NCBI RefSeq assembly: GCF_044324875.1
Contig: NZ_CP172185.1
From: Escherichia coli
GTDB lineage: Bacteria > Pseudomonadota > Gammaproteobacteria > Enterobacterales > Enterobacteriaceae
Strand: one strand, 5' to 3'
Length of the DNA: 64,000 nt
Part shown: piece by piece, positions 9,253 through 22,482 of the stretch
How positions within the stretch are numbered: the stretch's first letter is position 1
Layout of the letters: each line of letters starts with the position of its first letter
Notes under the pieces: generated by a model
What the model saw: the letters and a program-made list of their open reading frames with translations, nothing else
What the model was told of the DNA's origin: nothing
Databases searched by the model: none
Program-made: the position numbers and the translations under genes

Positions 9253-9830
9253 ACGCGGAGCTTATGCGCCTTATCAGCAACATTATCAGAACCGGCGTGA
9301 TTTTCGACGTGAACCCGCAGACCTGGGAGGTCCGGGTGCGCAGTGGCGGACTGGAGACAGGCTGGCTTCGCTGGAGCACCGCGCGGGCGGGCGCGTTCAG
9401 TGTCTGGGTGCCGCCAGCCACCGGTGAACAGGTGGCGTTCGTCTGTATCGGTGGTAATCCCGAAACCGCGATAATCATCGGCAGCCTCTGGAGCGATGAT
9501 ATCCCGGCACCGGGCAGCACACTGAAGGAAATCATCATGACAGCACCGGACGGTGCGGTATTCCGCTACGATGCAGACGCCGGTGCACTGGAGGTTAAGG
9601 GGATTAAAACAGCCAGCATTCAGGCCGACACGCGCATCACCCTGGACACGCCGGAGGTGGTGTGTACCCGCAAACTTATCACCGCCACCCTGGAGGTGCA
9701 GAACGGCGGCGAGATGCGCGGCAGCATATCCCACAGCGGCGGCAGCCTGACATCCAACGGTATCACCGTTCATACGCACACCCACGGTGGCGTCAGGACG
9801 GGCCCGGGCACCACGGGAGGCCCGCAATGA
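9249..9830 (+). CDS. V: Baseplate spike protein, P2 gpV-like
   Basis: 193-aa ORF, Gly-rich C-terminus; position and size as P2 V. Confidence 0.8.
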   Translation: MNAELMRLISNIIRTGVIFDVNPQTWEVRVRSGGLETGWLRWSTARAGAFSVWVPPATGEQVAFVCIGGNPETAIIIGSLWSDDIPAPGSTLKEIIMTAPDGAVFRYDADAGALEVKGIKTASIQADTRITLDTPEVVCTRKLITATLEVQNGGEMRGSISHSGGSLTSNGITVHTHTHGGVRTGPGTTGGPQ

Positions 9831-13852: not shown

Positions 13853-16800
13853 CTAATCTCTGTCACGGAAACTACCGACTGTCTGGCGGATACGGCGTTC
13901 CATTTCCGCACGGACGGCATCACCCACCATTTTTGCCAGTTCGCGCGGGTTTTGCGTGTGAACATCATGCAGGTGAATATGCAGTTCGCCAGTTAATCCC
14001 CATGGTGCCGGATCACTCTGACGCGGTCGGGGCGATGCGGGGGATATGGGCTGGCGCACAGCCTCAACCACCGGACGGGATGTTGCCGTTACGACGGGTG
14101 TCATTACCGGCGCAATATTGCCGGACACTACCGGTTTAATTACCGGGGAGAGCGTCGGTATAACATCGCCAGCCATAACCGGTTTGATCGCTGGCGAAAT
14201 AACCGGAGCAACAGACTCAGCCATGACGGAACTGACAGGCTGAGGCGCTCTCACTATGCCAGCATCGATAACCAGCATGAGCTCGCGTACTGCCTCAAGG
14301 ACAGGACGGGATATTGCCGCCATCACTGGTGTCATTAGCGGGGAGAACGTCGGCATGACATCGTGAGTCATAACCGGTTTGATCACCGGCGAAACCACCG
14401 GCGTAATATTACCGGACAGTACCGGACGGACGACCGGAGGAATAACCGGCACATTATTCACGGACACCACCGGCTTCACGACCGGCGACACGTTCGCCGT
14501 GGTGGATATCAGCGGCGAAACACTGACAGGCGGTGGCGCTGGCAGCGGTGGCAACGAAGGCACACTGACCGACGGCACCTGCGGCAGTCTGACAGGTGGC
14601 TCACTGACACTACCCGGTAACAGGGAAGCTGCGCGGTTAAAGCGTTCCTCCTTCCACTCACCACGAACGGCCAGCGCTTCCGGCAGGTTTTTAAAGATAA
14701 TATCGCCGGGACCAGTGCGTTTTTTCGCCTGTTTCGCCTCATCCAGCAGGCCACCGGTGTTATCGACGATTTTATTCAGGCGACGCATGGTGCCGGTATT
14801 CTCCCCCGTCAGCGGAGCAGTTGCTGCAGGTGCAGGTACTGGCGGCTTTTTGTCTTTGTCATTTTGCGGCGGATTAATGACATTAACATCCGCCAGGAGC
14901 ATGGCGGCTTTCTCGTTCAGCAGCTCCTTCTGCTTCAGCTCTTCCGCCTTTTTCCGGGCGCGCTCAACCGCCGACGGAATCAGCCCGAGTTTTTCCAGCA
15001 CCCGGGTTAATGAGTCAATCAGCAGCGTAACCGGACCGGTCACCAGATTGCTGATAAACTCCCCGACCTTCTGCCCGAACGTCCGCCCGGCTTCCGTGCA
15101 CTTGTCCAGCTCATCCTTTGTTGTGCTTACCGGCGCGAACAAATCCACGAACCACTGCCACACACGCCCGATTGTCTGCCCGACATACTCAAACAATGGT
15201 CCCAGTGGTGCCACAGCCTCGCGCAGTGGCGTAAGCCCCTGCCACAGGCCGGACAAGAACCCGCCCACGACAGCCTTCAGCTGGTCCCAGTGCCGCCAGA
15301 TAAGCACTGCCGCACCGACCAGTGTCGCCACCACAAGGCCCACCGGACTTAACAGAAAACCCAGCGCCCCGCCAAGTGCGCCCACCGCACCACTCACCAT
15401 CCCCCACAGTGCGGGCAGACCTGACAGTCTGAGCGCCAGTATTCCGATACCGCGCCCCAGTGAAATCAGTGCGCCGCCAGGTGAAGTGAACGCAGCCAGC
15501 AGACCACCACGCAGCGCGCCAAGTCCCGCCTGCACACCACGAAGCCGCCCCGCAACTACGCCCAGCAGTGCAGCAAACCGTCCGGCACCGGAGGTGATAC
15601 CGACAAACAGCACGCGCCAGCCACCGATACCGCCCAGCGGACCACCGAGTACGCCGCGCAGCTGCGTCAGTAACGGCAGCGCACGACCGAGGCCGGATGT
15701 GCCGGTCAGCAGGGCAAACCCAAGACGCAGTTTTGCCAGCGGCCCCATCAACACACCAGTGGCAAGTGACAGCGCCCCCATGGCCGCAACCGCAGCCAGC
15801 AGTGCACCACCGGCAATCAGCAGTTGTTTTGTCAGTTCAGGGTGCGCCTGGGCCAGCGCGGTGACTTTCGCAATAACCCGGGTGAACGACTGCGTGACAG
15901 AACGCAGCGGCCCGTCAACGAGGTCAGCGACACGGATACGCAGCCCTTCCCATGCGCTGTTCAGTGATTTCAGGTCGCCGTCCAGGTTGTCCGCCATGAT
16001 TCTGGCGTTTTCTTCCAGTTCGCCGTTCGCTGCCTGAATCTCACGCGTCAGGCGCGGCAGGTTTTTTTCGCCTGCCTGTTCAACCAGGCTCATCAGGGAG
16101 ACATACGCCTCCTGCCCGGCAATATCTGAAAAGAACGAGACTTTTGCCGCGTTACCGTATTTACGGGTGGCCTGATACAGCTCATACAGGATATCTTCCA
16201 TCGGGCGCATGTTCCCGTAAGCATCCTGCGTTTCCACGCCCAGCTGTTTCAGCGCCTTTGCTGCCGCTTTAGGCGGGTTCACAAGGCGGGACAGACTGGA
16301 GCGCAGCGCCGTACCAGCATCACTGCCACGTATCCCCATCGACCCAAGCAACCCGGTCATGGCTGCGGTCTGTTCAAGAGACAGACCGAGTGAGGCGGCG
16401 ACCGGTCCCGTATATTTCATCGTCTCACCAAGCCCGCGCAGGTCGGTATTGGTGCGGGTGAACGTTGCGGCCAGCGTGTCACCCACGCGGTTCATCTGGT
16501 CGGCAGACAACCCGAACTGCGTAAGGATATTTGAGCTGATATCGGCCGTCTGACCGAGGTCCATGCCGCTGGCCGTTGCCAGATTCAGCACGCCGGGAAG
16601 AGCCGCCTGTATCGCCTGCGGCGTGAACCCCGCCATGGCAAGGAACGCCTGACCGCTGGCAGCATCACCTGCGGTAAACTGCGTTTCGGAGCCGAGTTTA
16701 AGCGCCTGTTCGCGCAGCGCCTTAAACTGCGGACTGTTTTTGTCAATACGGGTCAGCGCCTGGACGCGCGACATCTCCTTACCAAAACTGACCGCCGGTT

Positions 16801-17431
16801 GCAGGAAACGCCCGGCCGCATAGCCACCTGCCGCTGCCGTGCCGACTGCCGTAAATCCACCCGCTTTCAGTTTTCCCGCCATCTCCTGAGCGCGGAAATA
16901 TTGCTGGCGTGCCTGCGTGACGCGTGCCAGAGTCTGCCGTTCACGTTCCAGCTGTTCGTTGTATTGCTGTGTTCGCCGTATGGCCTGTTGAATGGTGTTG
17001 TCACTGCCGGAAAGCGCAATACCGTGACGCCGCAGCTCACCACCCAGTTCGCGCATTCGCTGAACTTCACGCGCACGGACCTCATTGAGACGCTCAAGTT
17101 TGAGGCTCAAATCGTTCATCAGCTTTTTCTGTTTGTCAGACAGCACGGTTCCGGCGCGCTGAATTTGCTGAAGTGCGCTTAACTGGCGTTGTGCCCGGGC
17201 AATGCCGTTTCCGGCCTTGTTTGCAGCCTCGCGGGCGCGATCAAATGAACGGGCGTGGCGTTCCAGGTTTTTGATCGCACCCTGCGTTCTCTGTATGGAG
17301 TCGCCAAGCTGGCCCATCATGCGACGGGCGTTTTCGGTGGGACGGGTCAGCCTGTCAACAGCGCTGAAGGCGACCCGTATATCAAGCGTTTTCATGCTCT
17401 GCGTTCCCGCTGCGAAGGGCCGCCCGCTCAC
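13853..17431 (-). CDS. T: Tail tape measure protein, P2 gpT-like (1192 aa)
   Basis: Very long ORF; coiled-coil N-terminal part, Gly/Ala-rich hydrophobic central segment, Pro/Val-rich repetitive C-terminus; follows E/E' as in P2. Track start is GTG 17431 with SD GAGGTGG; alternative ATG at 17395. Confidence 0.85.
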   Translation of the reverse strand: MSGRPFAAGTQSMKTLDIRVAFSAVDRLTRPTENARRMMGQLGDSIQRTQGAIKNLERHARSFDRAREAANKAGNGIARAQRQLSALQQIQRAGTVLSDKQKKLMNDLSLKLERLNEVRAREVQRMRELGGELRRHGIALSGSDNTIQQAIRRTQQYNEQLERERQTLARVTQARQQYFRAQEMAGKLKAGGFTAVGTAAAGGYAAGRFLQPAVSFGKEMSRVQALTRIDKNSPQFKALREQALKLGSETQFTAGDAASGQAFLAMAGFTPQAIQAALPGVLNLATASGMDLGQTADISSNILTQFGLSADQMNRVGDTLAATFTRTNTDLRGLGETMKYTGPVAASLGLSLEQTAAMTGLLGSMGIRGSDAGTALRSSLSRLVNPPKAAAKALKQLGVETQDAYGNMRPMEDILYELYQATRKYGNAAKVSFFSDIAGQEAYVSLMSLVEQAGEKNLPRLTREIQAANGELEENARIMADNLDGDLKSLNSAWEGLRIRVADLVDGPLRSVTQSFTRVIAKVTALAQAHPELTKQLLIAGGALLAAVAAMGALSLATGVLMGPLAKLRLGFALLTGTSGLGRALPLLTQLRGVLGGPLGGIGGWRVLFVGITSGAGRFAALLGVVAGRLRGVQAGLGALRGGLLAAFTSPGGALISLGRGIGILALRLSGLPALWGMVSGAVGALGGALGFLLSPVGLVVATLVGAAVLIWRHWDQLKAVVGGFLSGLWQGLTPLREAVAPLGPLFEYVGQTIGRVWQWFVDLFAPVSTTKDELDKCTEAGRTFGQKVGEFISNLVTGPVTLLIDSLTRVLEKLGLIPSAVERARKKAEELKQKELLNEKAAMLLADVNVINPPQNDKDKKPPVPAPAATAPLTGENTGTMRRLNKIVDNTGGLLDEAKQAKKRTGPGDIIFKNLPEALAVRGEWKEERFNRAASLLPGSVSEPPVRLPQVPSVSVPSLPPLPAPPPVSVSPLISTTANVSPVVKPVVSVNNVPVIPPVVRPVLSGNITPVVSPVIKPVMTHDVMPTFSPLMTPVMAAISRPVLEAVRELMLVIDAGIVRAPQPVSSVMAESVAPVISPAIKPVMAGDVIPTLSPVIKPVVSGNIAPVMTPVVTATSRPVVEAVRQPISPASPRPRQSDPAPWGLTGELHIHLHDVHTQNPRELAKMVGDAVRAEMERRIRQTVGSFRDRD
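14060..14500. repeat. Imperfect tandem duplication (~230-bp unit) inside the 3' part of the tape measure gene
   Basis: gcctcaaccaccggacgggatgttgccg...gtgtcattaccgg (14061-) vs gcctcaaggacaggacgggatattgccg...gtgtcattagcgg (14292-); encodes repeated ...PVIKPVM..DV.PT.SP...SRPV.EAVR... units. Confidence 0.6.
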
Positions 17432-17908
17432 GCCAGGCGACCACCTCGCCGGGATCCATCAGGAAGATTTCAGCGGGAGACCAGTTGAAAATAACGGCGA
17501 TATCCGCCACAAAGTCTTCAATATGCTCAAAGGGCACGACGGTTATCAGCCTGCCGTCGCCGCCACGCTCTTCCCGCCAGAGTCCTGACCGGCCAAAAAA
17601 TTAACCGCCACCCCGCACAGCTGAATAAAATCAGCGGACCCCATGCGCTTAAGCAGAACCTCGTCCAGTCGCGGCGAAGTGACGCGCGGGAGTAACTCAA
17701 ACATCGCGTCCGTTTTCATGTTCAGCACGTCAAGCAGTGACAGCCCGCGCAGTGAACCGGCCTGCTGTACAGCAGGCGTGATTTCCACATACGTGATTTT
17801 TTTGTTACCGAGCACAAGGGGCGTTTTCAGCGTCACGCCGCGCTCACTGGTCACGTCCGCCGCATCAGCACCGTCAGTAACAGGGGCAACAACCGGATTT
17901 TCTTTCAT
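17382..17908 (-). CDS. E+E' fusion product from programmed -1 ribosomal frameshift (predicted ~175 aa)
   Basis: After slipping on T TTT TTG the -1 frame stays open for 70 codons (GRSGLWREERGGDGRLITVVPFEHIEDFVADIAVIFNWSPAEIFLMDPGEVVAWRERAALRSGNAEHENA) to TGA at 17382-17384, overlapping the start of T; triplet-by-triplet manual translation. Confidence 0.6.
17546..17908 (-). CDS. E: Tail assembly chaperone, P2 gpE-like (zero-frame product)
   Basis: 120-aa ORF ending ...VNFLAGQDSGGKSVAATAG; the NFL codons are AAT TTT TTG (slippery site). Confidence 0.75.
   Translation of the reverse strand: MKENPVVAPVTDGADAADVTSERGVTLKTPLVLGNKKITYVEITPAVQQAGSLRGLSLLDVLNMKTDAMFELLPRVTSPRLDEVLLKRMGSADFIQLCGVAVNFLAGQDSGGKSVAATAG
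17594..17602 (-). other. Slippery heptanucleotide T TTT TTG (codons AAT TTT TTG) for the E/E' -1 frameshift
   Basis: Plus strand ccaaaaaatt at 17593-17602; reverse complement AATTTTTTGG in the E reading frame. Confidence 0.65.
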
Positions 17909-17958
17909 GCATAAAACCTCAAATCAGGGGGCGACGCCGCGCGCCGCCGTGGAAAACA

Positions 17959-18477
17959 TTAACCACCAAGACCAATCGCCGAGCGCACGCGGTCCGGGAA
18001 GACGCTTTTGCCGTCCTTGCGTTCGATGTGGTTCAGTAAATCAATCTCCAGCACCGGACGGTCGTTAATGCTGAGTTTGTAGTAGGTACTTTTGACCGCA
18101 TAGGTGTGAGACGTGACCTCACCCTGTTTGGCCTCCCCGGTATCAATTTCCGTCACGCGACCGCGAAGCTCAATCTCGTACAGGTCACTCTGTTCTTCAT
18201 CGTTGTAGTACTCACCGACAAAGCGCAGCAGCGTACCGTCAATCGTTCCGCCGTACTTGAGGAACAGTTCGCGGGTCGGCCCGCCCATGGTGAAACTCGC
18301 ATCCAGCGCGCCGTCATCCAGGCCAAGGTCGATATTTACTGCACCGGCCATACCACCACCGCGATAGGCTTCCGTTTTACGGGTCAGTTTGGGGGGCGTG
18401 AAGCCGGTCACCCTGCCAATCTGGTTCACCCCGTCAGTAAACAGCGTGAACACCCTGAGATTTTTTGGTACGGCCAT
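17959..18477 (-). CDS. FII: Tail tube protein, P2 gpFII-like
   Basis: 172-aa ORF downstream of sheath gene; size and context. Confidence 0.85.
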   Translation of the reverse strand: MAVPKNLRVFTLFTDGVNQIGRVTGFTPPKLTRKTEAYRGGGMAGAVNIDLGLDDGALDASFTMGGPTRELFLKYGGTIDGTLLRFVGEYYNDEEQSDLYEIELRGRVTEIDTGEAKQGEVTSHTYAVKSTYYKLSINDRPVLEIDLLNHIERKDGKSVFPDRVRSAIGLGG

Positions 18478-18779
18478 TAAGCACCTCCAAGCGTCGCAAA
18501 TGCAGGACCAAAGAATTCATCAGTAAACGTCTGGTAAAGTTCCATATCCTCAAGCGGCGGAACGGGCGTGTACTTGTAGCGGATACGCACGCGTCCCTGA
18601 CGAAGTTCCGTGGTGCTGTTATCCACCACGTCATACCAGCACTCCGCACCAACGAGACGTCCTGACGTAACCAGCGCATCCAGTTTTGCGCGAATTGCGC
18701 TTAACACGTCTTTCACATTAGCAGGGGTCAGCGGGGCATCAATCGTTTCAAACTGCGCTTCCGCAACAGAATCAGCCAG

Positions 18780-18786
18780 CACCTGA
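18780..18786. repeat. Target-site duplication CACCTGA (left copy) of the IS21-family element
   Basis: Identical 7-mer at 21426-21432; reconstructed FI reading frame needs exactly one copy. Confidence 0.7.
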
Positions 18787-18988
18787 TGCAAAATGGCATC
18801 TGAATCGATCGCAGTTTGGCATTCGAATCGATCATGATTTGGCATCCATCTCCGATCACAGTTTGGCATCACAATCGATCACGATTTGGCATGCTTCCGA
18901 TCATTGATTGGCATCCTGCCAGTCACTCCGGGAATTAACTCTTTTCACCACAGTCTCCATTGCCGTGTTTAAACCAGTGGAGACGTCA

Positions 18989-20554
18989 ATGTCCAGAAAG
19001 AGAAAATCCAGGAGCACTATGGAAACCTGTTTTAAGATCCTTCAGCTCAAGTTCGACAAGAAGCTGACTAACCGTTGTATCGGACTGACGTTACACATCA
19101 GCGCCTCAACCGTTTTTGAGGTTCTTGCCCGCTTCAAAGCCTCTTCTCTGTCATGGCCATTACCTGCTGATATATCCCATGACACGCTGGAGAAACTCAT
19201 TTTTCCGCCCAAAGACACCTTTGCATCAGAGCTTGTAATGCCTGACATGTTGTACTTCGATACGGAAATGAGAAAACCAGGTGTGACGCGGCAACTGTTG
19301 TGGATGGAATACAAGGCACAGGCGGGTAACAAAGCGATGGGATACTCGCACTTCTGCCGTTGCTACCGGGAGTGGAAAAAAACGCGACGTCTCTCCATGC
19401 GCCAGGAGCATCGTGCCGGCGAAAAGCTTTTTATCGACTTCTGTGGTCCTACGGTTCCTGTTATTAATCCGGACACCGGTGAGATACGCCGCGTGGCAAT
19501 CTTCGTGGCCGTAATGGGGGCGTCCAACTATACCTACGTTGAAGCGTGCGAAGGTCAGGACATGATGTCATGGTTAAATGCCCACAGCCGTTGCCTGACC
19601 TTCCTGGGCGGCGTACCGAAGCTGCTCATCCCCGATAACCTCAGAAGCGCAGTGAAAAAGGCCGATCGATATGAGCCTGTCATCAACGACAGTTATCAGG
19701 CACTGGCTGAGCACTATGGCACGGTTATCATCCCGGCCCGACCACGCAAACCTAAAGATAAACCAAAAGCAGAAAACGGCGTCCTCATCGTTGAACGATG
19801 GCTTCTTGCCCGCATCCGTAATGAAACCTTCCACACGCTCAGGGCGCTGAATGCGCGCCTTAGGGAGTTACTGACAGACATGAATAACCGGCCAATGAAG
19901 GGGTACGGCAATCAAACCCGTGCAGAACGCTTCCGCATACTGGATGCGCCAGCACTCTCTCCGCTGCCTCTGGCACCTTATGAATACACGGAATACAAAG
20001 CTGTGAAGGTTGGCCCTGACTACCACGTTGAATATGCCCGTCACTGGTACTCCGTTCCACACGAACTGGTCGGTCAGCGTCTGTCACTGAAGGCGGGGCA
20101 GTCGGTGGTACAGCTCTGGCACAAGGGGCAGTGTGTGGCGCAACATCCGCGCAGCACACATGAATATAAACACACAACCAATCCGCTTCACATGCCAGAG
20201 CGCCACCGGCAGCACGGGACATGGACACCGGAACGCCTGATCGAGCAGGGAAAACGTACGGGCCCGTCCACAGGCCGGGTGGTTGAATCCATGCTGAAGG
20301 CAAAACCCCATCCGGAACTGGCTTATCGTGCAGTTCTGGGGCTGCTGGCACTTCAGAAAAAATACGGCCCGGAACGGCTGGAAAAGGCCTGTTACGTTGC
20401 CCTGCACTATAACGCCCCTGACAGACGCTTTATCGACAATCTGCTGCGTCACCATCGGGAGAACCTGGAGCTTCCATTATCCCGCCAGGGCGAACAACAT
20501 CCGGCATATGCTTCAGAGCATGAAAACCTGCGTGGTCCGGGCTACTACCACTGA
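18989..20554 (+). CDS. istA: IS21-family transposase IstA
   Basis: Start set at ATG 18989 after GGAG (track begins at a TTG at 18908); N-terminal HTH-like segment, ~520 aa; immediately followed by istB. Confidence 0.8.
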   Translation: MSRKRKSRSTMETCFKILQLKFDKKLTNRCIGLTLHISASTVFEVLARFKASSLSWPLPADISHDTLEKLIFPPKDTFASELVMPDMLYFDTEMRKPGVTRQLLWMEYKAQAGNKAMGYSHFCRCYREWKKTRRLSMRQEHRAGEKLFIDFCGPTVPVINPDTGEIRRVAIFVAVMGASNYTYVEACEGQDMMSWLNAHSRCLTFLGGVPKLLIPDNLRSAVKKADRYEPVINDSYQALAEHYGTVIIPARPRKPKDKPKAENGVLIVERWLLARIRNETFHTLRALNARLRELLTDMNNRPMKGYGNQTRAERFRILDAPALSPLPLAPYEYTEYKAVKVGPDYHVEYARHWYSVPHELVGQRLSLKAGQSVVQLWHKGQCVAQHPRSTHEYKHTTNPLHMPERHRQHGTWTPERLIEQGKRTGPSTGRVVESMLKAKPHPELAYRAVLGLLALQKKYGPERLEKACYVALHYNAPDRRFIDNLLRHHRENLELPLSRQGEQHPAYASEHENLRGPGYYH

Positions 20555-20570
20555 CAGAAGGAACAACAGT

Positions 20571-21326
20571 ATGAGTGATAACCTGTTAAACAAACTGACC
20601 CAACTGAAACTCCCGGCGATGGCCGGGAGCCTGATACGGCAGCGGGAAACGCCTCAGACCTACGACGAACTGTCGTTCGAGGAAAGGCTGACGCTGCTGG
20701 TTGATGACGAGCTTCTGAGCAGGGAAAACAGCCGTGTGGCACGGTTGAGAAAAAATGCCGGCCTGAAATACCAGGCAACACCGGAAGGGCTGCGCTATCC
20801 GGCCTCAAGAGGTCTGCGGGCTGAACAGATGAGAGAACTGCTGAACGGCCACTACATAACCCACAGGAAAAACCTGCTGATAACCGGTCCGACAGGATGT
20901 GGCAAGAGCTGGATAGCCAATGCGCTGGGCGAACAGGCATGTCGACAGAAACACAGCGTCCGGTACTGTAGAACCGGGCGATTACTGGAACAACTGGCTC
21001 AGGGACGTGTTGATGGCAGCTGGCTGAAATATCTGAAACAGTTGCAAAAAATACAGGTTCTAATCCTGGACGATCTGGGGCTGGAACAGTTAAGTAACGC
21101 CCAGTGTAATGACCTTCTGGAGCTCATAGAGGATCGTTACGGACAAAGCAGCACGATAGTGGTAAGCCAGTTCCCGGTAGATAAATGGCATGGTCTGATG
21201 GAGAACCCAACAACAGCAGATGCCATCCTGGACAGACTGGTACATAACTCACACCGAGTGGTCCTTCAGGGAGAGTCACTGAGGAAAAATCCCCCGGTAG
21301 TGGAAAGCAGCGAAAAAACGCGTTAA
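20571..21326 (+). CDS. istB: IS21-family ATP-binding helper protein IstB
   Basis: Start set at ATG 20571 after AAGGAA; Walker A GPTGCGKS and Walker B ILDDLG motifs, 251 aa. Confidence 0.85.
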   Translation: MSDNLLNKLTQLKLPAMAGSLIRQRETPQTYDELSFEERLTLLVDDELLSRENSRVARLRKNAGLKYQATPEGLRYPASRGLRAEQMRELLNGHYITHRKNLLITGPTGCGKSWIANALGEQACRQKHSVRYCRTGRLLEQLAQGRVDGSWLKYLKQLQKIQVLILDDLGLEQLSNAQCNDLLELIEDRYGQSSTIVVSQFPVDKWHGLMENPTTADAILDRLVHNSHRVVLQGESLRKNPPVVESSEKTR

Positions 21327-21425
21327 AAAGCGGTAGAAAAAGTTAAGTTCCCGGTTGATCGAATGGATGCGAATCGCTGATCGGACTTCGATGCCAATCC
21401 GTGATCGAATAGAGCGGAATACGCA

Positions 21426-21432
21426 CACCTGA
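21426..21432. repeat. Target-site duplication CACCTGA (right copy) of the IS21-family element
   Basis: See left copy at 18780-18786. Confidence 0.7.
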
Positions 21433-22482
21433 GCGGTTCGCGTGTACACCTCAAAGATATACGCCTTCGTTTCCGGCGTACGGTTGCCCCAGAAGCGGAA
21501 ACCGTTACGGCGAATGATGGTGGTGATTTCCTTGTTGTTGAGATTGTTGGCATCGCTGTCTTCGGACTGAAGGGACCAGAACACCGGGCTGGAAATACCC
21601 AGCACATTTCTTACCGGCACGTTGGACAGCGATTTATGCCAGCCCTGTTCGTGGTCAATACGTGCACGTAAACCGCAGGCGTACGCCGCAGCCGGGAAGA
21701 CCTCATTAGCGCCGGATTTCGGGTTATGGGCGATGAAGTCAGGCCAGAGCAGCATAAGTTCGCGCTCGTTAAATCTGGCGCGGTAGCTGATTGCATCAGC
21801 GGGCTTCTTGCAGTTGTGACAGCCCGCGTAGACAAATGCGCGAAGTTTTTCTGCAATTACACACAGGGATTTTGTGACAGCTTCAGTATCCAGTCCGGGC
21901 GCTGCGATGATGCGCGGACGGTAACCGATGGCATCATCCTGTTCAGCTATCAGAAGTGCATACATACCGGTATAATTACCGTCGCCATCCGTGCCACCAA
22001 TGACATACTGGTCCTGCGTTTTGTGTGGGTATACAGGATGTGCATCTTCAGACTCATCAATACCAAAAAATGCCCTGTCTTCAGGATCCAGATGACCGAA
22101 TGATGTAACTCCTGTATCCGGGGCGCCCTGAGAACTGGCATCAGGAACGCGCACCACAATCACCTTCGTGCTCACCTGGTCGGCGACAGCCTTAAGCGAT
22201 TTGTAAAGCGTCCCCTTTGTGCCGGCCTTACCCAGCACATCACTGACGCGGGTCAGCAGTGTGGGTTTGTTCAGCGGGAACAGAGTTTCATCCGCGTCAT
22301 CTGCCGTAGCCACAATACCAATAACACTGGAATCCACATCATTAATGGCGGTGGCAAGGCCGGTACTTTCCCTTACGCGCGCACCATGAAAGCGTGTTTC
22401 ACTCATATGTTTCACCCTTGTCTGGCTGGTTGATTTTGCGTAATCATTACCCACGATGCCGCCGGTATCATCTCCTGCCCGT

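What the first reader, a model, noticed from the sequence alone, without database searches (positions are those of the whole stretch)
17382..17908. Conserved E/E' programmed -1 frameshift with slippery site T TTT TTG
The E ORF ends ...VNFLAGQ...; the NFL codons are AAT TTT TTG, identical in form to the P2 E/E' slip site. Manual translation of the -1 frame from this point gives a 70-codon extension ending at TGA 17382-17384, overlapping the start of the tape-measure gene. This is the expected tail-chaperone arrangement and is not represented in the ORF track.
Basis: partly seen in the sequence, partly recalled or inferred. Interest (0 to 1): 0.4.

Follow-up and report, generated by a model that had tools for sequence, protein, structure and literature searches.

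The report
P2-type tail chaperone frameshift site
This is the well-known programmed -1 ribosomal frameshift that lets P2-like phages make two tail-assembly chaperones (E and E+E') from one start codon; it is really in the sequence, but it is an ordinary member of a described system that automatic annotation splits into two genes.

Summary
Every detail of the observation checks out. On the minus strand a 120-codon E-like ORF (17908..17546) contains AAT TTT TTG, so the heptamer T_TTT_TTG lies at 17600..17594 in the phase needed for slippage. The -1 frame from G17594 runs 70 codons to TGA 17384..17382 and overlaps the tape-measure ATG (17395) by 14 nt.

The motif and the layout alone are not rare: the heptamer occurs 38 times in the window, and 6 heptamer-plus-extension candidates were found. 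Homology and comparison carry the case:
- The extension matches Pfam PF06528 (P2 GpE, 8e-13).
- The conceptual fusion aligns with P2 E+E' straight through the slip site (36% identity, 2e-27).
- A 17-sequence panel (at least 15 genera, almost all Peduoviridae) keeps an in-phase slippery heptamer at the homologous F-L position.
- Substitutions against P88-like phages move from 0-frame to -1-frame third positions exactly at the heptamer.

No stimulatory RNA structure was found, as reported for P2. Public annotation gives two separate CDSs, and the fusion is absent from a 15-billion-protein collection. The host prophage (P88/Xuanwuvirus-like) has an IS21-family element in its sheath gene, so expression here is doubtful.

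Verdict: interpretation supported, already known, low interest.

The parts
17546..17908 (-). Gene E (0 frame): tail assembly chaperone, 120 aa, ATG 17908 to TGA 17546. A GAGG Shine-Dalgarno sequence lies at 17920..17917.
   Evidence: It matches phrog_103 'tail protein' at 4e-31. BLASTP against P2 gpE gives 35% identity, E 2e-14. RefSeq calls it 'phage tail protein' in a 99.9% identical copy.
17594..17600 (-). Slippery heptamer T TTT TTG. The P-site codon is TTT (Phe) and the A-site codon is TTG (Leu) of N-F-L.
   Evidence: It is the same heptamer, in the same phase and the same alignment column, as the annotated P2 frameshift site.
17601..17603 (-). A TAA stop in the -1 frame directly 5' of the heptamer. 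It closes the -1 frame upstream, so any productive shift must occur between 17600 and the E stop (a window of about 52 nt).
   Evidence: sequence GT TAA TTT TTT G. In one search the -1 open region begins exactly at the heptamer.
17382..17594 (-). E' extension in the -1 frame: 70 codons plus TGA 17384..17382. It contains the conserved motif D-x-x-A-D-I-A-V-I-F-x-W-x-P-x-E...W-R-E-R-A.
   Evidence: It matches Pfam PF06528 at 7.9e-13 and phrog_1756 at 1e-32. Substitutions show a third-position bias in the -1 frame.
17382..17908 (-). Conceptual E+E' fusion, 175 aa (...AVNFL|GRSGLW...), joined as 17908..17594 plus 17594..17382.
   Evidence: BLASTP against P2 E+E' gives 2e-27. tblastn finds two-frame matches in 396 phage records. 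AlphaFold gives pLDDT 85 with the junction inside a confident helix.
17382..17537 (-). The 51-aa GTG-initiated ORF that RefSeq/PGAP annotates as a stand-alone 'GpE family phage tail protein'. I read it as the 3' part of E', not as an independent gene.
   Evidence: Conservation and codon-position bias in the -1 frame extend 56 nt upstream of this GTG, back to the heptamer.
13853..17395 (-). Tape-measure gene T (1180 aa from ATG 17395). Its start overlaps the E' stop by 14 nt (ATGAAAACGCTTGA).
   Evidence: It matches PF10145 PhageMin_Tail at 3e-58. Its anti-SD pairing is weak, -4.3 kcal/mol, about the background median.
17959..18477 (-). Tail tube gene FII, directly upstream of E.
   Evidence: It matches PF04985 Phage_tube at 1.7e-44.

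Best explanation
The locus is the E/E+E' tail-assembly-chaperone pair of a P2-like (P88/Xuanwuvirus-like, Peduoviridae) prophage.

Most ribosomes starting at ATG 17908 read E to its stop at 17546 and make a 120-aa chaperone. A minority slip back one nucleotide on T TTT TTG (17600..17594). In this step the P-site tRNA-Phe re-pairs from UUU to UUU, and the A-site tRNA-Leu re-pairs from UUG to UUU. These ribosomes then read GGC CGG TCA... in the -1 frame for 70 codons to TGA 17382. The product is a 175-aa E+E' protein with the same N-terminal domain and a GpE-family (PF06528) C-terminal domain.

Function is inferred by analogy with lambda G/GT and P2 E/E+E'. The shared E domain would coat the tape-measure protein encoded immediately downstream, and the E' domain would recruit the tail tube protein. 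The fixed low frameshift rate would set the ratio of the two products.

What is shown here:
- the anatomy of the locus;
- homology of both parts to P2 E and E';
- conservation of an in-phase slippery heptamer;
- the switch of purifying selection to the -1 frame at the heptamer.

What is inferred:
- that the slip actually happens, and at what rate;
- the tRNA re-pairing details;
- the protein-protein contacts.
For: 1. Anatomy. The heptamer is in phase. The -1 frame is closed by TAA immediately upstream and open for 70 codons downstream.

2. Homology.
- The extension matches PF06528 at 7.9e-13 and phrog_1756 at 1e-32.
- The E part against P2 gpE gives 2e-14.
- The fusion against P2 E+E' gives 36% identity, 2e-27, aligned continuously through the junction.

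3. Synteny is FII (tube), E, E', T (tape measure), as in the P2 record. That record annotates E+E' as a -1 frameshift product with a join at the same heptamer.

4. Comparative evidence.
- tblastn with the fusion finds 396 phage records. Every listed hit that covers both halves matches as two pieces, consistent with a change of frame between them.
- In a 17-sequence panel (at least 15 genera, almost all Peduoviridae, plus a Vhmlvirus), 13 carry T TTT TTG and 2 carry T TTT TT(T/C), all in phase at the same F-L/F-F alignment column.
- The rest carry other X XXY YYZ heptamers: A AAT TTT, C CCT TTC, G GGA AAG.

5. Selection, against P88, Chuche and P88_4B11.
- Upstream of the heptamer, substitutions peak at 0-frame position 3 (49 of 96).
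- In the E/E' overlap they peak at -1-frame position 3 (7 of 11, against 1 of 11 at 0-frame position 3).
- In the E'-only part they also peak there (16 of 26).

6. AlphaFold models the fusion as one confident fold (pLDDT 85, pTM 0.74). The junction lies inside helix 91-107, and a hairpin at 112-124 is encoded by the overlap read in the -1 frame.

7. Literature. P2 makes the 91-aa E and the 142-aa E+E' by a -1 shift at TTTTTTG. The site is conserved in P2-like Burkholderia phages and no downstream hairpin is present (PMC3091744, citing Christie 2002 and Xu 2004). The lambda G/GT mechanism is described in PMC5009743.
Against:
- No stimulatory element was found. The downstream fold has z = 0.08 and -0.37, and there is no Rfam hit. 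An upstream anti-SD-like GGGGTGG (-10.3 kcal/mol, 5th percentile) is not conserved in P88. This matches what is reported for P2.
- The E part does not reach any Pfam or NCBIfam model, including PF10109, which P2 gpE hits.
- The heptamer-plus-extension layout alone is not statistically unusual.
- This prophage copy has a 2.6-kb IS21-family element in the sheath gene upstream in the same transcription direction. The site may therefore not be expressed, or not matter, in this strain.
Confidence: 0.93

Rival explanations
1. E' is an independent small gene translated from GTG 17537 (51 aa), as RefSeq/PGAP and most phage records annotate it. On this reading no frameshift is needed.
For: The ORF exists with a GTG start. 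It is annotated as 'GpE family phage tail protein' in near-identical E. coli genomes and in P88. The 51-aa sequence is in databases on at least 999 contigs. A modest, interrupted anti-SD match lies upstream (-9.2 kcal/mol, 9th percentile).
Against: - The -1-frame peptide is conserved for 19 codons upstream of the GTG, back to the heptamer: GRSGLWREERGGDGRLITV here against ERCGLWREERTGDGSLITV in P88.
- Substitutions in that stretch fall on -1-frame third positions (7 of 11).
- The P2 E+E' alignment is continuous through this stretch.
- AlphaFold places a confident hairpin there.
- P2 and 186 records themselves annotate a frameshift product.
- The in-phase slippery heptamer is conserved across at least 15 genera, which independent initiation would not require.
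Confidence: 0.04
2. The frame change is made at the RNA level. RNA polymerase slips on the T6 run and adds one U, so a subset of mRNAs encodes ...NFFGRSG... in a single frame.
For: The site is a homopolymeric run of six T. Transcriptional slippage is a documented alternative route to the same two-product outcome in some phage and bacterial genes (review PMC5009743).
Against: Six residues is short for efficient slippage (my knowledge of the literature, not tested here). Homologues keep the function with heteropolymeric tandem-slippage heptamers that cannot support polymerase stuttering: A AAT TTT in P88_4B11, where the T6 run is broken; C CCT TTC in Kp4861-1; G GGA AAG in Mannheimia. The strict codon phase of the heptamer matters for ribosomes, not for polymerase.
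Confidence: 0.02
3. The arrangement is a decaying pseudogene or chance juxtaposition in a defective prophage, with no functional recoding.
For: The prophage carries an IS21-family insertion in its sheath gene. Heptamer-plus-extension layouts arise by chance several times in the window.
Against: The same arrangement is present, with intact frames, in viable sequenced phages (P88, Chuche, P2, 186 and others). Both frames show purifying selection. The site is 99.6-99.9% identical in at least 24 E. coli genomes, including copies with an intact sheath gene.
Confidence: 0.01

Closest known systems
Bacteriophage P2 gpE / gpE+E' (FETUD tail operon; Christie et al. 2002, cited in PMC3091744; RefSeq NC_001895 P2p25/P2p26)
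   Same: - The heptamer T TTT TTG is identical, in the same codon phase and the same alignment column (V-G-F-L in P2, V-N-F-L here).
- The shift is in the same -1 direction.
- The gene order is the same: FII, E, E', T.
- The E' stop overlaps the T start.
- Both halves are homologous (E 2e-14; fusion 2e-27, 36% identity).
- No downstream RNA structure is present.

   Different: - E is 120 aa here against 91 aa in P2. The extra part is a roughly 20-residue N-terminal extension that is predicted disordered.
- The distance from heptamer to E stop is 48 nt against 21 nt.
- E' is 70 codons against 57. The extra segment, LWREERGGDGRLIT, is predicted to form a beta-hairpin.
- The E part misses Pfam PF10109, which P2 gpE hits.
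- A -1-frame TAA abuts the heptamer.
- The overlap with T is 14 nt against 8 nt.

Escherichia phage P88 / Chuche / P88_4B11 (Peduoviridae, Xuanwuvirus), the nearest sequenced phages
   Same: The fusion is about 66-70% identical at the protein level. The architecture, the 48-nt heptamer-to-stop distance, the 70-codon E' and the 14-nt overlap with T are all the same. They are likewise annotated as two separate 'tail protein' CDSs.
   Different: P88 and Chuche have the extended run A AAT TTT TTG, giving two overlapping slippery heptamers. P88_4B11 has lost T6G and keeps only A AAT TTT. The window has only T TTT TTG, because GTT AAT puts a TAA in the -1 frame.
Phage lambda gpG / gpGT tail assembly chaperones (Levin 1993; Xu, Hendrix, Duda 2004, 2013, 2014; reviewed in PMC5009743)
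   Same: The logic is the same. [quoted passage not shown] Neither product is expected in the virion.
   Different: No detectable sequence relationship was sought or found. The lambda heptamer is G GGA AAG. Lambda has a non-contractile tail. The Mannheimia member of the panel uses the lambda-type heptamer.

Membership tests
P2-type E / E+E' frameshifted tail assembly chaperone pair | The gene pair lies between the tail tube gene (FII) and the tape-measure gene (T), on the same strand. | tested here: met
   FII is at 17959..18477 (PF04985, 1.7e-44). T is at 13853..17395 (PF10145, 3e-58). Both are on the minus strand.
P2-type E / E+E' frameshifted tail assembly chaperone pair | A second reading frame, -1 relative to E, overlaps the 3' end of E and extends beyond its stop. 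| tested here: met
   The -1 frame is open from 17600 to 17385 and overlaps E by 48 nt after the heptamer.
P2-type E / E+E' frameshifted tail assembly chaperone pair | An in-phase X XXY YYZ slippery heptamer (T TTT TTG in P2) lies within the overlap. | tested here: met
   T TTT TTG at 17600..17594 is in phase. It is the only such heptamer in the overlap.
P2-type E / E+E' frameshifted tail assembly chaperone pair | The -1 product is homologous to P2 E' (Pfam PF06528 Phage_P2_GpE). | tested here: met
   The extension matches PF06528 at E 7.9e-13, 48.1 bits against a cutoff of 23. It matches phrog_1756 at 1e-32.
P2-type E / E+E' frameshifted tail assembly chaperone pair | The 0-frame product is homologous to P2 gpE. 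| tested here: met
   BLASTP against P2 gpE gives 35% identity over 88 aa, E 2e-14, and phrog_103 matches at 4e-31. Caveat: the Pfam model PF10109 (Phage_TAC_7), which P2 gpE hits at 1.5e-12, gives no hit here even at E up to 10, and NCBIfam gives none.
P2-type E / E+E' frameshifted tail assembly chaperone pair | The slip site is conserved in position and phase among homologues. | tested here: met
   Of 17 panel sequences, 15 have T TTT TT(G/T/C) in phase, all in the same F-L/F-F column. One of these, Kp4861-1, has C CCT TTC. Two differ: P88_4B11 has A AAT TTT three nt upstream, and Mannheimia has G GGA AAG displaced downstream.
P2-type E / E+E' frameshifted tail assembly chaperone pair | Purifying selection acts on the -1 frame from the slip site onward. 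| tested here: met
   The third-position excess moves from the 0 frame (49 of 96 upstream) to the -1 frame (7 of 11 in the overlap, 16 of 26 beyond it). The number of substitutions in the overlap is small.
P2-type E / E+E' frameshifted tail assembly chaperone pair | Both E and the E+E' fusion are produced in vivo, and the fusion is required for tail assembly. | not testable with these tools
   This needs protein detection and genetics. It is established for P2 only through the literature (PMC3091744; the P2 record notes).
Tail assembly chaperone fold (lambda gpG-like / TAC superfamily) | Structural similarity of the E domain to solved or predicted tail assembly chaperones. | tested here: inconclusive
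   The AlphaFold model is confident. There is no PDB match by Foldseek (best E 0.37) and none by sequence. In BFVD the best matches are unnamed E-sized viral proteins (TMt 0.80-0.85, E 3e-4). Proteins named 'tail assembly chaperone' appear only weakly (E 0.016).

The most novel reading that the evidence does not exclude
Translation of the tape-measure gene may be coupled to the frameshift. The T start codon (17395) lies inside the last codons of E', with a 14-nt overlap, and has no better anti-SD pairing than random positions. The same overlap of 4-14 nt is seen in 13 of 15 panel genomes, and a weak SD in about 10 of 15.

If T is initiated mainly by ribosomes terminating at the E' stop, the rare frameshift would meter both E+E' and the tape measure. 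The two low-copy partners would then be tied at roughly 1:1, while E is made in excess. My evidence neither shows nor excludes this.
Probability: 0.15. Interest if true: 0.4.

Novelty: already known. Interest (0 to 1): 0.1.

Why it matters
It matters mainly for annotation. The 175-aa E+E' product of this P88-like lineage is missing from public protein sets. Its C-terminal part is instead recorded as a stand-alone 51-aa 'GpE family' protein on at least 999 contigs, so proteomic and comparative analyses will miss the real product.

Biologically it is one more instance of the conserved tail-chaperone frameshift. The natural heptamer variants found in the panel (T TTT TTG, A AAT TTT, C CCT TTC, G GGA AAG) illustrate that slipperiness, not the encoded residues, is what is conserved. 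Nothing here would surprise a phage specialist.

Tried and rejected
- **Downstream stimulatory RNA structure.** The 94-nt and 60-nt folds after the heptamer are no better than shuffles (z 0.08 and -0.37). The same holds in P88, P2, P88_4B11, phiT5282H and 186. Rejected as a feature, in line with PMC3091744.
- **Rfam.** A scan of 17200..18100 at E up to 1 found nothing.
- **Upstream SD-like stimulator, as in dnaX.** GGGGTGG, 7 nt upstream, pairs with the anti-SD at -10.3 kcal/mol (5th percentile). It is not conserved in P88-like relatives. Not claimed.
- **Pfam and NCBIfam on the E part.** No hit. Homology had to be shown pairwise and by PHROG.
- **PDB by sequence and by fold.** No relative was found.
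- **The search for related loci with the single E protein.** Only two near-identical viral contigs were returned. The comparative panel was built from tblastn hits instead.
- **Christie et al. 2002 (PMC135442).** The paper is not held in the library, so P2 facts are taken from the RefSeq record and from PMC3091744.
- **Chance estimate.** The heptamer and the layout alone are not significant, so I did not rest the case on them.
- **Other heptamer-plus-extension candidates in the window** (for example GGGCCCG at 9800 +, TTTTTTC at 21318 -). By position, these look like ordinary neighbouring-gene overlaps or the IS junction, not recoding sites. They were not studied further.
Full report
**1. What is in the sequence**

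The feature is on the minus strand. An ORF of 120 codons runs from ATG 17908 to TGA 17546. It is preceded by GAGG 8 nt upstream and ends ...SADFIQLCGVAVNFLAGQDSGGKSVAATAG*. The codons for N-F-L are AAT TTT TTG (17602..17594), so the heptamer T TTT TTG occupies 17600..17594 in the X_XXY_YYZ phase.

Reading from G17594 in the -1 frame gives 70 sense codons (GRSGLWREERGGDGRLITVVPFEHIEDFVADIAVIFNWSPAEIFLMDPGEVVAWRERAALRSGNAEHENA) and then TGA 17384..17382. The -1 frame has a TAA (17603..17601) directly 5' of the heptamer. Any productive change of frame must therefore happen between 17600 and the E stop.

The tape-measure gene starts at ATG 17395, as annotated in a 99.9% identical E. coli copy. It matches PF10145 at 3e-58 and overlaps the end of the extension by 14 nt. 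The tail tube gene FII (PF04985, 1.7e-44) lies just upstream at 17959..18477. Every statement in the finding is therefore correct. The only imprecision is that E does not end at VNFLAGQ but 12 codons further on.

**2. Is it more than chance?**

Not on motif or layout alone.
- TTTTTTG occurs 38 times in the window.
- Among all stop-to-stop ORFs of at least 100 codons, I found six cases of an in-phase slippery heptamer within 30 codons of the stop with a -1 extension of at least 50 codons.

The case rests on homology and comparison.

**3. Homology**

- The -1 extension matches Pfam PF06528 (Phage_P2_GpE; 7.9e-13, 48 bits against a cutoff of 23) and phrog_1756 (1e-32).
- The 0-frame product matches phrog_103 (4e-31) and P2 gpE by BLASTP (35% identity, 2e-14).
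- It does not reach PF10109, the Pfam model that P2 gpE hits, nor any NCBIfam model.
- The conceptual 175-aa fusion aligns with P2 E+E' continuously through the junction (36% identity, 2e-27), with F-L on F-L.
- The P2 RefSeq record annotates E (91 aa) and E+E' (join at the same GGT TTT TTG, "-1 frameshift; essential tail protein") between FII and T.

**4. Comparative evidence**

tblastn with the fusion finds 396 phage records. Every listed hit that covers both halves matches as two pieces, which is what a conserved change of frame would give. The nearest phages are the Xuanwuvirus group (P88, Chuche, P88_4B11) at about 66-70% protein identity.

I fetched a 17-sequence panel spanning at least 15 genera. 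Almost all are Peduoviridae, plus a Vhmlvirus and a Zymomonas plasmid-borne prophage. Results:
- Thirteen have T TTT TTG and two have T TTT TT(T/C), all in phase and in the same alignment column. F104 is at least 90% conserved.
- The others have different tandem-slippage heptamers: A AAT TTT in P88_4B11, where the T6G run is broken; C CCT TTC in Kp4861-1; G GGA AAG in Mannheimia, displaced downstream.
- Slipperiness in the right phase is conserved, not a particular peptide. This also argues against RNA-polymerase stuttering.

**5. Selection**

In nucleotide alignments with P88, Chuche and P88_4B11:
- Upstream of the heptamer, substitutions concentrate at 0-frame third positions (49 of 96 against P88).
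- In the 48-nt E/E' overlap they concentrate at -1-frame third positions (7 of 11), with only 1 of 11 at 0-frame third positions.
- In the E'-only part they also do so (16 of 26).

Purifying selection therefore changes frame at the heptamer. That is 56 nt upstream of GTG 17537, the start that RefSeq uses for a stand-alone 51-aa "GpE family phage tail protein". The counts in the overlap are small, and the three relatives are not independent.

An AlphaFold model of the fusion, built on the 17-sequence alignment, is confident (pLDDT 85, pTM 0.74). The junction lies inside helix 91-107, and a hairpin at 112-124 is encoded by the overlap read in the -1 frame.

**6. Mechanism**

The best-supported reading is classical tandem -1 ribosomal slippage on U UUU UUG.
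- Most ribosomes make E.
- A minority make E+E' (...AVNFL-GRSGLW...).

I found no stimulator:
- Downstream folds are no better than shuffles here and in five relatives.
- There is no Rfam match.
- A G-rich anti-SD-like stretch upstream is not conserved.

This agrees with the report that P2 and P2-like Burkholderia phages lack a downstream hairpin (PMC3091744). The roles of the two products are inferred from lambda G/GT (PMC5009743) and were not tested. In that model, E coats the tape measure and E' recruits the tube protein.

**7. Rival explanations**

- Independent initiation of E' at GTG 17537 is contradicted by sections 4 and 5, although a trace of such initiation cannot be excluded.
- Transcriptional slippage is disfavoured by the heteropolymeric variants.
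- Decay or chance is contradicted by intact copies in viable phages and by selection in both frames.

**8. State of annotation**

Near-identical E. coli genomes (24 at 99% or more), P88 and Chuche all list two separate CDSs. An exact look-up shows E on 198 contigs and the 51-aa piece on at least 999 contigs. Neither possible fusion sequence is in a collection of about 15 billion proteins.

**9. Context**

The prophage copy in this window is probably defective. Compared with the intact LH50-c copy, a 2639-bp IS21-family element is inserted in the sheath gene FI at 18787..21425.
- It encodes an IstA-like protein with rve and Mu-transposase C domains, and an IstB protein (PF01695, 2.4e-60).
- It is flanked by a 7-bp direct repeat, CACCTGA.

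FI lies upstream of FII-E-E'-T on the same strand. None of 5,426 complete E. coli genomes has this junction. The frameshift site is thus inherited intact but may not be expressed or useful here.

**10. Verdict**

This is an orthologue of the P2 E/E+E' recoding site in a P88-like prophage. It is already known as a kind and of low interest beyond correcting annotation.

The only less conventional idea the data leave open is that tape-measure translation is coupled to termination of the frameshifted ribosomes. The E' stop overlaps the T start in 13 of 15 genomes, and the SD is weak in about 10 of 15. I rate that at about 15%.

Noticed in passing
window 18787..21425 (flanking repeats 18780..18786 and 21426..21432): A 2639-bp IS21-family element (IstA-like ORF 18908..20554, IstB ORF 20328..21326) is inserted in the tail sheath gene FI of the same prophage. 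It is flanked by the 7-bp direct repeat CACCTGA. The sheath gene is split into 21276..22454 (N part) and 18477..18872 (C part). The junction is absent from 5,426 complete E. coli genomes, although the IS itself is in 2,217 of them.
   Followed up: yes
window 17382..17537 (-): Public annotation (PGAP/RefSeq, P88, Chuche) records the 3' part of E' as an independent 51-aa 'GpE family phage tail protein' starting at GTG. The fusion is in no record examined and is not in the 15-billion-protein collection.
   Followed up: yes
window 17393..17395 and 17382..17384 (-); panel loci L002-L021: The E' stop overlaps the tape-measure start by 4-14 nt in 13 of 15 genomes. The T start has only background-level anti-SD pairing in about 10 of 15. 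This suggests translational coupling of T to frameshifted ribosomes. Untested.
   Followed up: partly
window 17432..17450 (-), upstream of GTG 17431: A strong anti-SD match, GGCGAGGTGGTC (-16.7 kcal/mol), lies inside the E' coding sequence and precedes an in-frame GTG (17431) of the tape-measure ORF. This could be an alternative upstream T start (MSGRPFAAGTQSMKTL...) or just the codons for the conserved G-E-V-V motif.
   Followed up: no
window 13853..14700 (-), C-terminal third of the tape-measure protein: The tape measure is long (1180 aa, against a 2808-nt gene in P88). Its translation shows degenerate Pro/Val-rich repeats (...PVVSPVIKPVM......PVISPAIKPVM...). Tandem Repeats Finder sees no DNA-level repeat. 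The near-identical LH50-c copy has its T gene flagged as a truncated pseudogene.
   Followed up: partly
window 17798..17804 (-) inside E: There is a run of seven A (GGT AAC AAA AAA ATC) in the E gene, partly conserved in P88-like phages (six A). It is not in slippery phase and no open alternative frame was noted.
   Followed up: no
L008 894..900; L009 831..837; L019 888..894: Relatives carry natural slip-site variants: A AAT TTT in P88_4B11 (T6G lost), C CCT TTC in Klebsiella phage Kp4861-1, and the lambda-type G GGA AAG in Mannheimia phage 587AP1, placed after an acidic insertion.
   Followed up: partly
window 9800 (+), 580 (-), 22367 (+), 21318 (-): Other in-phase slippery heptamers lie near ORF ends with long -1 extensions. 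By position they look like ordinary overlaps with the next gene, spurious ORFs, or the IS/sheath junction. They were not examined individually.
   Followed up: no
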